Shown piece after piece: positions 15,001 through 21,000 of a stretch of DNA of 64,000 bases; positions within the stretch are counted from its first letter, which is position 1; the number at the start of each line of letters is the position of its first letter. The stretch comes from Spirochaetia bacterium (GTDB lineage: Bacteria > Spirochaetota > Spirochaetia > DSM-16054 > Sediminispirochaetaceae). Where the stretch lies: the NCBI GenBank assembly GCA_034520965.1, contig JAXHMY010000002.1, positions 320,001-384,000 on the forward strand. Reading direction: 5' to 3'. A program made the position numbers.

Positions 15001-18000
15001 CAGAAAATCCAAGCAACTATGATATGTGGAACTACGATCTCAACCTTTACCTGGCATACCACTTTCTCGGCACCAAATCGCTTCTCGACCCTTTCCTCCA
15101 GGCCGGCTTCGGGCTCTGGGCCTACGACTATATGAACAAAGATGCTCTCAGAGAAGAAGAAGAGGAGACATGGGTAACCGACGATCCCCTGATGGGTTCA
15201 GCCTACTTCGACCTCGGGGCGGGCCTCGGCGTCAACTTCGGTTCTTTAGGAATATTTTTTAGGGGCATGTACAACTTCCAGTCCGACAAGCCACTGTACG
15301 GTCAGGATCAGAGCGGTTCAGACTATGAGATCTTCGAGCTCCCGGTTATGCCTTTCAAATGGACCTTCGGGGCTAAATTTCTCCTCTAAGCCCCTGGAAG
15401 TATAGTTTTTACCATAGAGGTAAATGGAAGGGGCTGCCTTGATTCTTGGGCAGCCCCTTTTTTCACTGATTCTCCGAACTATACGATTGTAATGCCAGCG
15501 TGCTGGGCACCTAAAGGCTGGGCAAAAGCAGAAACAGAAGCACCGGTAACCTCTGTAATATTTGTCGAATGATCTTGGCAGCCGAAGGGAAACGCGGTAC
15601 ATTAAAATGAGGATAAAATAAAAAGAAGGAGGACGAGATGAATAAAAAAACAGTTATTACCCTGATTATAGCGGTGCTGCTGACCGCAGTTGCAGTGCAG
15701 AATGTCAGCGCCTACGGATACCGGCAATCCCGAATCGGTTTTGGGGTGGGAACCCCGAATGCGGTTATTATCTATCGGCCGGCGCCCTTCGACTTCCGCT
15801 TTGGCTACGATTTTTCCGAGGGCAACCAGTTTATCTTTTTAAGCGGCGACTGGCGGCCCACCGGCAACATACAGATAACCGGACCCCTGCACTTTTACTT
15901 CGGCATAGGCGGCTACGCCAAGTTTTACCCCGGGACCGGCAGCTCCGAGGACTGGTTTGAAGGAGGCACCCGCCTGCCCCTGGGCCTGAGCCTGATGTTT
16001 CTGGACAACGTGGGAGAGCTGTTCCTGGAGGTAGCCCCGGGTTTTGATCTGTACCCCAAACCGGTATTCTCCCAGGACCCGGTTCAGGTGTGGGCCGGCC
16101 TGACCTTTGCCATTCGATAGGCCTGTACAGGGGGCGCAATGAAGGGTTATTTTACCGGACGCGGCTTATCCGGGGCGACGATAAAAATCGTCGCCCTGGT
16201 ACGCAACCTGGTTATTTTTATCGGCGGGGTGTGGTTCTTTGAGTTTAAAGCCGACTACGTGTTTCCCGCCGAAGAGAATCTGCTGCTGTACTTTGTGGCT
16301 ATTCCAATTATTTGGTCTACTCTTATCCACATATGGACCAGCACCAGCTACGGCGAGCAGCAGGGCCTTTTTATGCATCTGTATACCCACCTTATCTCAG
16401 TGCTGCTGTTGATCTCGTCGGTGTTCTTGATCAGCGCCACCCTCAACACCATCTCCGACAGCCTGGACACCCTGGGCAACATTCTGTTCCACTTTGTGGG
16501 CTGGACAGTAATTATCTCGCTGATTTACTACGATATGGTGGATATAAACCGCTATTAAGAAAATAGCCGTATCCGGCTATTTTCGCTGTTTCGGTTGCCG
16601 CTACGCGGCATGCGAAACTAATCAGGCTAACTCGCGGATATAGCGGCGAAGAGCGCTGTTGATGAGGGTCTGATAGCCCGTTTTTTCTTCCGAGGCCTTT
16701 TTCTTGAAATAGAGAATGATGTCGTCGTCAAGCCGGATGGTGGTGGTAATTTTTTTTGGAGTATAGAACCGGCCCCGTTCACCCCCGGAAAAGTCGTATT
16801 CCGGCTCTACTTCAAATACATCCTCAGGTTTTTTCGTATTGTCTTTGCTCATTTTGTCTTTGCTCATTGGGGCGGTCGCCTCCCGTGCCGACACGATTCG
16901 TATGATCTCTTCTCCCTCATAAGTAAAATACAAGTGTGCCACTACTAATAGGAGCAGGTTATGAGTAGCCCCCAAAGTAATCCACCGCTCCTCAAAATAA
17001 TTAAACCGTGTATCTAATATTGAGACGTGCAATGGATCGTTGAAAACTTCTGCAGCTAAATGAAACGAGATGCCGTGCTTTCGCCTGTTTGCTACTGCTT
17101 TATGCTCATCCCATTCAAACCTCATAGTCACAGTATACATATAAATATTTACATTGTACATACTATTAGCCTATTATTTTGCAAAATTACTTGTACTCAC
17201 TCCGGCAAGCCGTTTATCATTAAGGGAAGAATAAAATAAGTTAAGGAGATACGGTTATGCAGAAGGGTGAAGGCAAGGGTTTGGCGATTTTGACCAGCGG
17301 AGGAGATGCCCAGGGAATGAACCCGGCGGTACGGGCGGTGGTGCGCACCGCCATTAAATGGGGCTTTGTGCCCTACGGGGTGTACGAGGGCTACCAGGGG
17401 CTGGTGGACGGTGGTGAGTATATTCAAAAGCTGGACTGGGGTTCGGTGGGCGGTATTTTGCACCGCGGAGGCACCACCCTCGGCTCGGCCCGCTCCAAGG
17501 ACTTTCGCGAGAAGGAGGGGCTGATTCGAGGGGTGCGCAACCTGGTGGAGCGAGATATTACCAATTTAATTGTCATCGGCGGCGACGGCAGCCTAAGCGG
17601 GGCGAACGAGTTTCGCAGCCTGTGGCCGGAGCACCTGGATATTTTAGTCGAGCGCGGCGAGATAAGCCCCGAGCAGCGAGAGCGCAACCGGCACCTGAAA
17701 CTGGTAGGCCTGGTGGGCTCTATCGACAACGATATGTTCGGTTCGGATATGACTATCGGGGCCGCCTCGGCCCTGCACCGCATTACTGAGGCAATCGACT
17801 CAATTACCGCCACCGCCTCCAGCCACCAGCGGGCCTTTGTAATTGAGGTAATGGGGCGCAACTGCGGCTACCTGGCCCTGATGAGCGCCCTGGCCGCGGG
17901 AGTGCAGTGGGTGCTGATTCCCGAAAACCCGCCGGATGTAGAGAACTGGGAAGAGCGCATGGTGGAGGTAATGAAAGAGGGGCGGGATGCCGGAAGGCGC

Positions 18001-21000
18001 TACAGTATTGCCGTGGTGGCCGAGGGGGCCCGCGACCGCAACGGTACTCCCATTAGCGCAGAACACGTGGTACAGGTGCTCAAGGAACGGCTTACGCCGG
18101 ATACCCGGCTTACCATTCTGGGCCATGTGCAGCGGGGAGGCACCCCCTGCGCTTTTGACCGCTACATGAGCACCATGCAGGGCTACAAGGCGGTGGAGAC
18201 TATCAGTGAAATGAACGAAGACGACCCGGCCCAGCTGATTGGGCTGCGCAGACACTCCAACGTGGCCTCGCCCCTGATGGACTGCGTGCAGGAGACCCGC
18301 TCTATCAAGGAAGTAATAGAGAACAGAGAGTATGCCAAGGCAATGAAGATGCGCGGGGGCAGTTTTGCCGACTCCTACGACACCTTCCGCACCCTTATCA
18401 GCGCCCTGCCCCGTAATCCGGTTCCCGAGACTCAGCGGCTGCGCATCGGGGTGATGCACGGCGGCCCCCCTGCTCCCGGTATGAACACGGCGGTACGGGC
18501 GGCGGTGCGCATAGGCATAGACAACGGGCACCAGATGTACGGGGTGCACAACGGCTTTGAGGGGCTGATTAAAGGAGACATTAGCCCGATGGATTGGATG
18601 AGCGTGGACGGCTGGGCTTCCCAGGGGGGCAGCGAGCTGGGTACTAACCGCCGAGTACCTACCGAAGAGGAATTGCCCATTGTGGCCCGACACCTGCGGG
18701 AGAAGAAGATGAACGGGCTGCTGATGATCGGCGGCTGGGACGGCTATGCGGCGGCCCATCTGCTGCACAGCCGGCGGGATGAATTCCCAGAGTTCAACAT
18801 TCCGATTATCTGCCTGCCCGCTACTATCAACAACAACCTGCCCGGCTCGGAGCTGAGCGTGGGCTCCGATACCGCCCTAAACACCATCATGGAGGCGGTA
18901 GATAAAATTAAACACTCCGCGGTGGCCTCGCGGCGGGTGTTTGTGGTTGAGGTGATGGGCCGCAACTGCGGGTATCTGGCCCTGTTGAGCGCCCTTTCCA
19001 CCGGGGCCGAGCGGGCGTATCTGCAGGAGGAAGGGCTTACCCTGAAGGACCTTCAAAATGATATAAAGAACCTGGTAAAGGGCTTTGAACGGGGCAAGCG
19101 GCTGGGCTTGATGATCCGCAACGAAAATGTGAATGAGTTTTACACCGCCGACTTTATGCGCTCGATCTTTGAGCAGGAGGGCCAGGGGCTGTACGATGTG
19201 CGGCGGACGATTCTGGGGCACCAGCAGAACGGCGGCGACCCCAGCCCCTTCGACCGCATTCAAGCTACTCGCCTGGCCAAGCGCAGTATGGAGCATATTT
19301 TCATCGAGGCGGCCAAACCACAGCCGGAAAGCTACATGTGCGGCCTGGTCAACGGTCAGGTTCAGTTTAACTGGTTACACAAGTTTTACGAACTGGGCGA
19401 CGGAGAGCTGGAGCGTCCACACCAGCAGTGGTGGCTGAAAATACGTCCGGTTGCCACTACCCTTGCATCGGAGGACACTCCCCTGGACTACACTGAGCTG
19501 TAACGGCTGAGAACAAGCAAGAGGGGCCGGGCGCCGACCCGCCCCTTACTCGGGCTCAGGTTTGCCTTGACCCCGCCGGCATTAGTATACTCAAGACTCA
19601 GGGATTGCATTTATTAAGGAGATTAATATGGATTTAAAATCAACGACAACATTAAATAACGGGGTAAAGATGCCCTGGGTAGGTTTTGGAGTGTTTCAGA
19701 CGCAGGAGGGCCCGGAGGTGGAGAACGCGGTGCGCTGGGCCCTGGAGACCGGCTACCGGCATATCGATACGGCCAGTTTTTACGAGAACGAGGCGGGTGT
19801 GGGCAAGGCGATTGCCGCCTCGGAGGTGTCCCGGGATGAGCTGTTTGTGACCACCAAGGTGTGGAACACCGAGCAGGGCTACCAGGAGAGCCTGAAGGCC
19901 TTCGACCGCAGTCGCACGAAGCTGCAGATGGATGTGGTGGACTTGTACCTGGTGCACTGGCCCTTGAAGCACAGTTTTAAGGATACCTACAAGGCGCTGG
20001 AGAAGCTGTATGCCGACGGGAAGGTGCGGGCGATTGGGGTGAGCAACTTTCTGCCCCACCATCTGAAGGACCTGATGGCCGACTTTGATGTGGTCCCCGC
20101 GGTAAACCAGGTGGAGTGGCACCCCTTTCTGTTTCAGAAGGAGCTGTACGAGTTTTGCAAGTCCAAGGGAATTCAGCAGGAGGCCTGGAGTCCCCTGACC
20201 CGGGGGCGCTTTCTGGACGAGCCGGTGCTGAGGGAGATCGCCGAGGCCCACGGCAAGTCGCCGGCCCAGGTGCTGCTGCGCTGGGATCTGCAGCACGAGG
20301 TGGTGACGATTCCAAAGTCGGTGCACAAGGAGCGGATTATCGAGAACTCCCAGGTTTTCGACTTTCAACTGAGCGACCTGGAGATGGCGCGGATAGACTC
20401 GCTGGACAGCGACACCCGCATCGGGCCGCATCCGGATAAAATGAGCTAAGGCGCAGGAGCGAGGGTAAGTTGCTTAGTGGTGCCGACCCCGTCGCCCGGC
20501 CCACCCTGCCCCTTCGGTCAGCCTTGCCCCGCCCCGGAGGCCGAGGCTCAGCAGCAGAGGTACGGCCGGCGCCGGCAGCTGCTGCGGAAGCATAGGAAAC
20601 AGTCCCAGGGCAATGAGCGCTGCTGCAGCGGCGATTCCCGCATACCACCGGATAAATGGGGGCTGTTGCCGGGGCTTTTTGCTACTCCCTTGGGGGCCTT
20701 GCGAGAGTCCCCTGGAGCGTCGTTGGTGGCGCCGTTTTTTTATTAATAAAAATGCAATGATTACATGCACTGGCCATGCCCACAGCAGATGGTCAGTTGG
20801 CAGTAGTCGTCACGTATCCCGAGAAAATCCACAACAGCAGGCTTGCCGTACCTATCAATCCCGCAGCTCCAAATAGGAGCGCATCCAGGGCCCGTGCACC
20901 CCGGGACCAGCGAAAGCGGGAGAGCGTAAGCAGGAGCGCGGCGGCAAAGAGCAGCCACAGCAGCAGCGAGGGCAAAAGAGACCAGACTCTATCCGCGAAA

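What a model noticed while it worked through the whole genome (the two positions that open the first line are those of the whole stretch)
17257..19503. Eukaryote-type tandem-duplicated phosphofructokinase in a spirochaete family
g01532 is a 748-aa, two-half ATP-dependent PFK1 of the animal/fungal type, 47% identical to rabbit muscle PFK over its whole length. It is a trait of this family, and its nearest outside relatives are in Anaerolineae, so the duplicated allosteric PFK is not confined to eukaryotes.
Evidence so far: Swiss-Prot best hit; full-length PDB matches are only mammalian and yeast PFKs, E 6e-225; TIGR02478 over the cut-off in 13 of 16 family relatives and 0 of 300 other spirochaete genomes sampled; next homologues at about 61% include named Anaerolineae/Chloroflexi proteins; gene lies among bacterial genes in relatives' loci.
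(Added by a program. Inside this text positions count along the whole contig: contig position 320,001 is position 1 of the stretch shown here. "Call 12" and the like, gene names such as g00115 and contig names such as C1 are that model's own, and its searches are not shown. The text may have been shortened before it was handed on; [...] marks where a part breaks off. The agent that wrote the report below was given it as the finding of a first reader that could run no searches.)

Follow-up and report, generated by a model that had tools for sequence, protein, structure and literature searches.

The report
Animal-style phosphofructokinase in a spirochaete
This bacterial gene encodes the double-length, animal-and-fungal form of the enzyme that gates sugar breakdown; it is one of many such bacterial copies, and their family tree suggests that the design arose in bacteria and passed to eukaryotes ready-made.

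Summary
Confirmed: 17257-19503 (+) is an intact 748-aa two-half ATP-type phosphofructokinase (TIGR02478 959 bits, cut-off 708; model TM 0.95 to human PFK). It is not special to this family. It occurs in 13 of 16 family relatives, a second spirochaete family (4 of 384 other class members), 30 of 300 Chloroflexota, 21 of 300 Actinomycetota, and named Desulfobacterota, Bacteroidota and Gammaproteobacteria. New here: trees with eukaryotes. Eukaryotic enzymes form one clade nested inside bacterial two-half enzymes, in both halves and with two outgroups. Holding all bacteria together is rejected (AU p 0.0055, 0.033). The second active site decays in steps from deep bacteria to eukaryotes. So the duplication probably arose in bacteria. 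The spirochaete copy's nearest relative is unresolved: Anaerolineae are not shown to be nearest, and a spirochaete-plus-eukaryote grouping is not rejected (p 0.58). 'Allosteric' is inferred only. The sugar-phosphate pocket is kept, but no fructose-2,6-bisphosphate-making enzyme was found in 74 carriers, so fructose 1,6-bisphosphate or F6P is the likelier ligand. This scan found the same form three times before on other DNA.

The parts
17257..19503 (+). Gene for a two-half ATP-dependent 6-phosphofructokinase, 748 aa (P0001)
   Evidence: model pLDDT 91.9, TM 0.94-0.96 to human and yeast PFK
17257..18411 (+). N-terminal catalytic half (residues 1-385): all 16 catalytic and substrate positions checked are kept; Gly111 and Gly154 mark ATP as donor
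   Evidence: Site table; alignment to rabbit and human PFKM
18430..19434 (+). C-terminal half (residues 392-726): catalytic Asp replaced by Asn525, GGDG loop replaced by GGWD, His-x-Gln-Arg motif ends in Asn658; sugar-phosphate pocket residues R465, T523, N527, R560, E623, R649, H655, R720 kept; Y629 and F633 of the tetramer face kept
19435..19500 (+). C-terminal tail, 22 residues after Trp726 (about 38 in human PFKM); last five residues low confidence
17244..17248 (+). Ribosome-binding site AGGAG, 8 bases before the ATG
   Evidence: Sequence
17148..17177 (+). Sigma-70-like promoter match (10 of 12); weak lead only
   Evidence: 3 found in the region against 2.4 expected by chance
19628..20449 (+). 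Aldo/keto reductase gene downstream; adjacent or one ORF away in 3 of 14 stretches compared
20793..21662 (-). lnb-like lipoprotein N-acyltransferase gene; the conserved neighbour (7 of 14 stretches, genera g1 and g4); no functional link proposed

Best explanation
The gene encodes the organism's ATP-dependent glycolytic phosphofructokinase. The N-half phosphorylates fructose 6-phosphate with ATP; the C-half is a dead copy that holds the oligomer together and binds a sugar phosphate, most likely fructose 1,6-bisphosphate or F6P rather than fructose 2,6-bisphosphate, with ADP/AMP activation at the inter-half site probably kept. It belongs to a widespread bacterial family of two-half PFKs in which the tandem duplication arose once. 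An early amoebozoan/opisthokont ancestor took the fused gene from one branch of that family; a spirochaete ancestor took it from the same branch and passed it down in genera g1, g3 and g4, with further transfers among spirochaetes. Shown: architecture, residues, distribution, tree shape. Inferred: activity, ligands, oligomer, direction and number of transfers.
For: Residues: 16 of 16 catalytic positions kept in the N-half, catalytic Asp and the GGDG loop lost in the C-half. Fold: TM 0.95 to human PFKL. Range: 31 of 301 Chloroflexota and 22 of 301 Actinomycetota, each count including its centre genome; named Desulfacinum, Desulfoferrobacter, Syntrophobacteraceae, Anaerolineae, Lewinellaceae, Contendobacter, Cytophagales, Schaalia, Tessaracoccus. 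Tree of 44 full-length rows: eukaryote side 98/98; eukaryotes plus main bacteria plus a Chloroflexota row 100/99; a deeper bacterial group outside. Same nesting in N-halves rooted on 14 single-domain PfkA alone, 100/99, and in both halves together, 99 and 97, with all 44 C-halves one clade at 98. All bacteria held together rejected: p 0.0055 and 0.033. Stepwise decay of the second active site: Asp at 525 in 101 of 110 deep bacterial rows, Asn or Asp in 29 of 30 Chloroflexota, Ser in 33 of 36 eukaryote-side rows; Arg at 658 in 110 of 110 deep rows, Gln in 29 of 30 Chloroflexota and 35 of 36 eukaryote-side rows. PF01591 (the enzyme that makes F2,6BP) not found in G000 or its 13 carrier relatives, nor in 60 other carriers. 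A phylogenomic table labels this eukaryotic group as Amorphea, not LECA, with a code I read as bacterial sister of undefined phylum (PMC11976288).
Against: No enzyme of the bacterial family was assayed in anything I read. The AU groups were named after I had seen trees, and the N-half p of 0.033 is marginal. Relations inside the main-bacteria-plus-eukaryote clade are unresolved: the main bacterial clade has only 89/91, is not recovered in N-halves, and eukaryotes plus spirochaetes is not rejected (p 0.58; the constrained tree scored 2.5 log units higher). Only 4 of 13 eukaryote-side rows carry a eukaryote name, and none is a named animal. The inhibitory ATP site N1 is poorly kept and the citrate Lys617 equivalent is Glu611. 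The Dictyostelium two-half enzyme is called non-allosteric. The PF01591 search had no positive control among the genomes searched.
Confidence: 0.68

Rival explanations
1. Same enzyme and history, but effectively non-allosteric: the C-half is structural only, as described for Dictyostelium PFK.
For: Dictyostelium precedent (PMC4717248 passage). Site N1 not kept; Asn658 replaces the Gln or Arg of all other groups; no F2,6BP maker found.
Against: Eight sugar-pocket residues, R26, R30, R414, R418 of the effector sites, and most ADP-site residues are near-invariant in the spirochaete rows, which are only about 60-70% identical across genera; this points to selection for ligand binding.
Confidence: 0.15
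2. The duplication is bacterial, but the main bacterial branch, including the spirochaete copy, came back from a stem eukaryote; or the spirochaete branch is itself the closest relative of the eukaryotic enzymes.
For: Main bacteria and eukaryotes are not resolved from each other in N-halves; eukaryotes plus spirochaetes not rejected, p 0.58; amoebozoan PFK finds Chloroflexota proteins at 48-53% as its best hits after two closer unnamed rows.
Against: Eukaryote-side rows are one clade without any named bacterium (98/98, 99/97); a Chloroflexota row, P0138, branches just outside both; the spirochaetes carry their own derived Asn658 and keep ancestral Arg569; no free tree joined spirochaetes to eukaryotes.
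Confidence: 0.12
3. The duplication arose in eukaryotes and all bacterial two-half enzymes descend from one or more transfers out of eukaryotes.
For: The textbook framing: two papers read describe the duplication for eukaryotes, animals and fungi only (PMC12203962 sections 5 and 7; PMC11609450 passage). Distribution in bacteria is patchy.
Against: Rejected by AU tests; deep bacterial rows keep catalytic Asp and Arg in the C-half that eukaryotes have lost, which would need reversals.
Confidence: 0.04
4. Assembly contamination or a chimeric contig from a eukaryote.
For: GC3 0.747 is above 98.9% of 832 long ORFs of the genome; the genome is 86% complete, 2.85% contaminated.
Against: 13 relatives carry orthologues at 70-95% identity with shared neighbours; neighbouring genes have the same high GC3, 0.69-0.81; no introns; ribosome-binding site present.
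Confidence: 0.01

Closest known systems
Mammalian PFK-1 (rabbit PFKM 3o8l, human PFKM 4omt, PFKP 4xyj/4u1r, PFKL 8w2g); TIGR02478 / InterPro IPR009161 'eukaryotic type'
   Same: Two-half architecture, 44-47% identity over the whole length, TM 0.94-0.96; catalytic N-half, dead C-half, sugar-phosphate pocket, ADP site and tetramer-face aromatics largely kept.
   Different: Asn525 for Ser530, Arg569 for Gly575, Asn658 for Gln664, GGWD for GGFE; inhibitory ATP site N1 poorly kept; Glu611 for citrate-site Lys617; tail 22 residues against about 38; no F2,6BP-making enzyme found in the genome.
Yeast PFK alpha/beta (3o8o, 3opy)
   Same: Same core, 40% identity, TM up to 0.96.
   Different: No extra N-terminal domain; one gene, so a homo-oligomer.
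Amoebozoan two-half PFKs (Balamuthia P0129, Cavenderia P0137; Dictyostelium PFK from the literature)
   Same: Among the earliest-branching eukaryote-side rows; share the RP..QWW end with bacteria; best database hits are Chloroflexota proteins.
   Different: Ser at 525, Ser or Ala at 569 and Gln at 658 in the two named rows; Dictyostelium enzyme described as non-allosteric.
Bacterial two-half PFKs of Chloroflexota and Actinomycetota (main branch), annotated 6-phosphofructokinase by NCBI
   Same: The gene's own group: 47-63% identity, same length, TIGR02478 over cut-off. From memory, not from a call: the TIGR02478 comment names Propionibacterium acnes as a bacterial member.
   Different: Spirochaete rows have Asn658 where 29 of 30 Chloroflexota have Gln.
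Deep bacterial two-half PFKs (Desulfacinum, Desulfoferrobacter, Syntrophobacteraceae, a second Anaerolineae group)
   Same: Same duplication by the halves tree.
   Different: C-half keeps Asp (101 of 110) and Arg (110 of 110) of the ancestral active site; branches outside main bacteria plus eukaryotes.
Single-domain bacterial PfkA (Geobacillus 3pfk/4pfk, E. coli 1pfk)
   Same: Each half has this fold and the N-half its catalytic residues.
   Different: Half the length; one kind of active site and one effector site.

Membership tests
Two-half ATP-dependent PFK (TIGR02478, IPR009161) | Whole-protein score over the curated cut-off | tested here: met
   959.1 bits against 708.4
Two-half ATP-dependent PFK (TIGR02478, IPR009161) | Two tandem PFK domains in one chain | tested here: met
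Two-half ATP-dependent PFK (TIGR02478, IPR009161) | Catalytic N-half with ATP-type glycines | tested here: met
   16 of 16 positions kept, Gly111 and Gly154; meaning of the glycines from established knowledge
Two-half ATP-dependent PFK (TIGR02478, IPR009161) | C-half without catalytic Asp and ATP pocket, with the sugar-phosphate pocket kept | tested here: met
   Asn525, GGWD; R465, T523, N527, R560, E623, R649, H655, R720; PFKM residue list recalled
Two-half ATP-dependent PFK (TIGR02478, IPR009161) | One origin with the eukaryotic enzymes, not a separate duplication | tested here: met
   N-halves group with eukaryotic N-halves (99; 100/99) and C-halves with eukaryotic C-halves (97)
Two-half ATP-dependent PFK (TIGR02478, IPR009161) | [quoted passage not shown] | not testable with these tools
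   Needs an enzyme assay
Allosteric animal/fungal PFK-1 | Activation by fructose 2,6-bisphosphate | tested here: inconclusive
   Pocket mostly kept but Arg569 and Asn658 differ; PF01591 not found in 74 carrier genomes, without a positive control
Allosteric animal/fungal PFK-1 | Inhibitory ATP site N1 residues | tested here: not met
   R234, V238, F377, R378, S382 at PFKM 242, 246, 385, 386, 390; only W218 kept; site list recalled; also variable among eukaryote-side rows
Allosteric animal/fungal PFK-1 | Vertebrate citrate site K557, D591, K617 | tested here: inconclusive
   K552, E585, E611; positions from PMC2990764, which says Lys617 is vertebrate-specific
Allosteric animal/fungal PFK-1 | Tetramer through the C-halves | not testable with these tools
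   Y629 and F633 match PFKM Y635 and F639 (positions recalled); needs sizing or a structure
Eukaryotic clade in the strict sense (descent from a eukaryote) | Nested among eukaryotic sequences | tested here: not met
   Eukaryote side is one clade without the spirochaete rows; sister relation not rejected
PPi-dependent PFK | Asp in GGDD and Lys in PKTIDND | tested here: not met
   GGDGS and VGSIDND in P0001; PPi-type models far below cut-off

The most novel reading that the evidence does not exclude
The duplicated, fused PFK that textbooks treat as a eukaryotic innovation arose in bacteria, probably among Chloroflexota or Desulfobacterota. Living bacteria preserve its stages: a deep group whose second half still has catalytic Asp and Arg, a main group that has lost Arg, spirochaetes with a third state (Asn, Asn), and eukaryotes with Ser, Gln and mostly Gly. 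The amoebozoan/opisthokont ancestor took the enzyme ready-made, and its activator pocket predates fructose 2,6-bisphosphate signalling.
Probability: 0.7. Interest if true: 0.68.

Novelty: new member of a known kind. Interest (0 to 1): 0.5.

Why it matters
The rise of new effector sites after the PFK duplication is a classic case in enzyme evolution, so far argued from bacterial single-domain and eukaryotic two-half end points. A 2025 review still describes the duplication for eukaryotes only (PMC12203962, sections 5 and 7). If the duplication is bacterial, natural intermediates exist in cultured genera (Desulfacinum, Litorilinea, Tessaracoccus, Schaalia) and can be expressed and assayed to see when the second site died and what it bound before fructose 2,6-bisphosphate. 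It also points to the bacterial groups from which the animal/fungal glycolytic gatekeeper came. The spirochaete gene itself is one ordinary member, useful mainly for its distinct Asn525/Arg569/Asn658 pocket.

Tried and rejected
Plasmid search: no full-length two-half match among the 15 listed of 77 records, all under 60% identity. RNA runs: no RNA holder listed; no evidence either way. Complex prediction for two copies of the C-half: no verdict, score 0.06, controls not folded; not used as evidence. Pyruvate kinase not found in G000, but present in 15 of 16 relatives, so put down to the 86% completeness; PPDK is present. High GC3 as a sign of recent transfer or high expression: rejected, since neighbours share it and housekeeping genes lie at 0.44-0.62. 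'Confined to this family among spirochaetes': rejected. 'Anaerolineae are the nearest relatives': not supported. Direct eukaryote-to-spirochaete transfer from within crown eukaryotes: not seen in any tree, though a sister relation was not rejected. Careful 24-row tree did not finish; the quick tree was used. Rows left out: sturgeon P0127 and other representatives under 640 aa or with broken halves; 15 long or partial rows dropped; eight rows and the five very deep rows dropped. Literature: nine searches answered; none listed a paper whose title or abstract describes bacterial two-half PFKs; (phosphofructokinase, two-domain, Anaerolineae) returned 0. The main supplement of PMC11976288, which holds its PFK tree, was too large to read and may already show this.
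Full report
Observation. The window holds an intact ORF at 17257-19503 (+), 748 aa, with an AGGAG site before the ATG. 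It has two Pfam PFK stretches, 33% identical to each other. TIGR02478 scores 959.1 bits against a cut-off of 708.4. Of 29 PDB sequences matched, the 11 near-full-length ones are mammalian or yeast, led by rabbit muscle PFK at E 5.8e-225. A model from a 23-row alignment (pLDDT 91.9) matches human and yeast PFK with TM 0.91-0.96, except one Pichia chain at similar query TM and lower target TM.

It is a resident gene. TIGR02478 passes in 13 of 16 family relatives: 8 of 9 in genus g1, 3 of 3 in g4, 1 of 1 in g3, 1 of 3 in g2. An lnb-like gene lies near it in 7 of 14 stretches compared, in g1 and g4. GC3 is high (0.747, above 98.9% of 832 long ORFs), but so is that of its neighbours (0.69-0.81). 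A named Sediminispirochaetaceae protein (P0025) falls inside the family's clade, which suggests the family's name. G000 has two other PFK-A frames, 456 and 557 aa; the longer has PPi-type motifs, and no single-domain PfkA was found in this 86% complete genome.

Range. One draw of 400 other Spirochaetota gave 0. A draw from the class with P0029 as query gave 4 of 384 genomes outside the family, all one genus of family f105; the two draws overlap in part. In an RpoB tree of 30 genomes f105 is not sister to f1, so either the gene moved between spirochaete lineages or was lost many times. Two g2 genomes of 99-100% completeness lack it, and the one g2 copy is sister to P0001 (81% identity) although g2 lies apart from g1 in RpoB: probably a transfer within the family. 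Outside spirochaetes it passes the cut-off in 31 of 301 genomes of the phylum of an Anaerolineales genome and 22 of 301 of the phylum of a Propionibacterium genome, each count including the centre genome chosen for having it. A capped scan of named genomes kept 80 of 596 confirmed stretches; 14 were two-half: six Chloroflexota, six Actinomycetota, Candidatus Contendobacter and a Cytophagales MAG. A search from a divergent representative found a further group with named Desulfacinum, Desulfoferrobacter, Desulfosoma, Syntrophobacteraceae and Anaerolineae. Still more divergent two-half proteins fall below the cut-off, one named Lewinellaceae. So the form occurs in at least six bacterial phyla.

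History. The careful tree of 44 full-length rows (LG+C20) shows 13 eukaryote-side rows as one clade (98/98). With the main bacterial rows and a Chloroflexota row (P0138) they form a clade at 100/99, and the deep bacterial group lies outside. N-halves rooted only on 14 single-domain PfkA give the same nesting (100/99). A 112-row tree of both halves repeats it in each half (99, 97) and groups all 44 C-halves (98), pointing to one duplication. Holding all bacterial rows together is rejected (p 0.0055; p 0.033); these groups were named after I had seen trees. In one search the five single-domain rows nearest the two-half clade are from Chloroflexota (98/93 against the rest), a hint only. Limits: 4 of the 13 eukaryote-side rows bear a eukaryote name (Balamuthia, Cavenderia, Choanoeca, Chytriomyces), a fifth clusters with a Gloeochaete transcript, the rest are placed by the tree, and no named animal was included. 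The spirochaete rows are one clade in full-length trees (98/97) though not in N-halves alone. Their sister is unresolved. Holding spirochaetes with eukaryotes is not rejected (p 0.58) and that tree scored 2.5 log units higher than the free quick tree, so neither Anaerolineae nor any other group is shown to be nearest.

How it works. Positions were mapped from the PFKM alignments; the site lists are recalled, except R88, R201, R210 and R292 (PMC11345425 passages) and K557, D591, K617 (PMC2990764 passages). All 16 catalytic and substrate positions of the N-half are kept, with the two glycines that mark ATP use. In the C-half the catalytic Asp is Asn525 and GGDG is GGWD, so it should not catalyse. 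The sugar-phosphate pocket keeps R465, T523, N527, R560, E623, R649, H655 and R720. R26, R30, R414 and R418 of the effector sites and most ADP-site residues (D164, M165, Y205, F300, S369, D538, F665, R672) are kept; the inhibitory ATP site N1 is not; the citrate triad reads K552, E585, E611. Y629 and F633 match the tetramer face. The decay of the second site is graded. At 525: Asp in 101 of 110 deep rows, Asn 17 and Asp 12 of 30 Chloroflexota, Asn in all spirochaete rows, Ser in 33 of 36 eukaryote-side rows. At 658: Arg in 110 of 110 deep rows, Gln in 29 of 30 Chloroflexota, 16 of 22 Actinomycetota and 35 of 36 eukaryote-side rows, Asn in all spirochaete rows (25 database proteins, 10 genome loci that overlap them, 2 from the second lineage, and P0001). 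At 569: Arg in spirochaetes, 23 of 30 Chloroflexota and 101 of 110 deep rows, Gly in 12 of 14 fungus-like rows. The ancestral states sit in the deep bacteria, which agrees with the trees. PF01591, the domain that makes fructose 2,6-bisphosphate, was not found in G000 and its 13 carrier relatives (the only hit among 17 family genomes was a weak 175-aa frame in a non-carrier) or in 60 other carriers; there was no positive control. I infer an ATP-PFK oligomer whose second pocket binds F1,6BP or F6P and which answers to ADP/AMP. Allostery is not shown: the two-half Dictyostelium enzyme is described as non-allosteric (PMC4717248 passage).

What is known. NCBIfam names the protein and NCBI annotates its bacterial relatives as 6-phosphofructokinase. 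From memory, the TIGR02478 comment already lists Propionibacterium acnes as a bacterial member. PMC12203962 (passages and sections 5 and 7 read) and PMC11609450 (passages) describe the duplication for eukaryotes only. PMC11976288 (passages, supplement searches and one small file; preprint passages) lists PFKA among enzymes donated by other prokaryotes and labels the group 'pfk1, Amorphea, B, U'; its main supplement with the tree could not be read. PMC1665464, PMC9512073 and PMC12802204 (passages) added nothing on bacterial two-half enzymes. Ten searches listed no paper on them; most subscription papers, including Bapteste 2003, are outside the library. Three earlier notes of this scan report the same form in other bacteria; one gave the lead on the Arg/Gln position, which I confirmed and to which the spirochaetes add Asn.

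Verdict. A real, correctly identified gene and a new member of a known family; ordinary as a single copy. Its value lies in the family: the evidence favours a bacterial origin of the 'eukaryotic' PFK, with living intermediates open to assay. Interest 0.5.

Noticed in passing
window 16622-17161 (-): BrnT toxin and BrnA antitoxin domains read as one 179-aa ORF here, while a close relative (L163) has them as separate ORFs of 94 and 106 aa; a fusion or a lost stop.
   Followed up: partly
window about 17000-22000: A block of 58-59% GC in a 48% GC genome, covering the PFK, aldo/keto reductase and lnb-like genes; GC3 0.72-0.81.
   Followed up: partly
P0212, P0231, P0235, P0256, P0269: Very divergent two-half PFKs below the TIGR02478 cut-off, one named Lewinellaceae; their C-halves group with all other C-halves, their N-halves are unstable. 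Possibly the earliest stage of the duplication.
   Followed up: partly
P0267: A 730-aa tandem of two group III (PFK_mixed) domains: apparently a separate PFK duplication.
   Followed up: no
G438 (L025/L114) and G957 (L145, L158): Each genome has two full two-half PFK genes.
   Followed up: no
G000 C2:519028-521664 and C2:102967-105573: Two pyruvate phosphate dikinase-like genes; pyruvate kinase not found in G000 but present in 15 of 16 relatives.
   Followed up: partly
window 20793-21662 (-) and 21548-21982 (-): The lnb-like gene appears as 289-aa and upstream frames, whereas relatives have 372-461 aa in one frame; possibly frameshifted here.
   Followed up: no
window 24722-25958 (+): Two overlapping ORFs (312 and 120 aa) that look like a methionine sulfoxide reductase A/B gene in two frames; relatives have about 404-419 aa in one ORF.
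   Followed up: no
P0430: A two-half PFK in a Gloeochaete (glaucophyte) transcriptome clusters with an unnamed metagenome protein on the eukaryote side; contamination or a copy outside Amorphea.
   Followed up: no
window about 35000-64000: GC skew turns steadily negative from about 33 kb.
   Followed up: no
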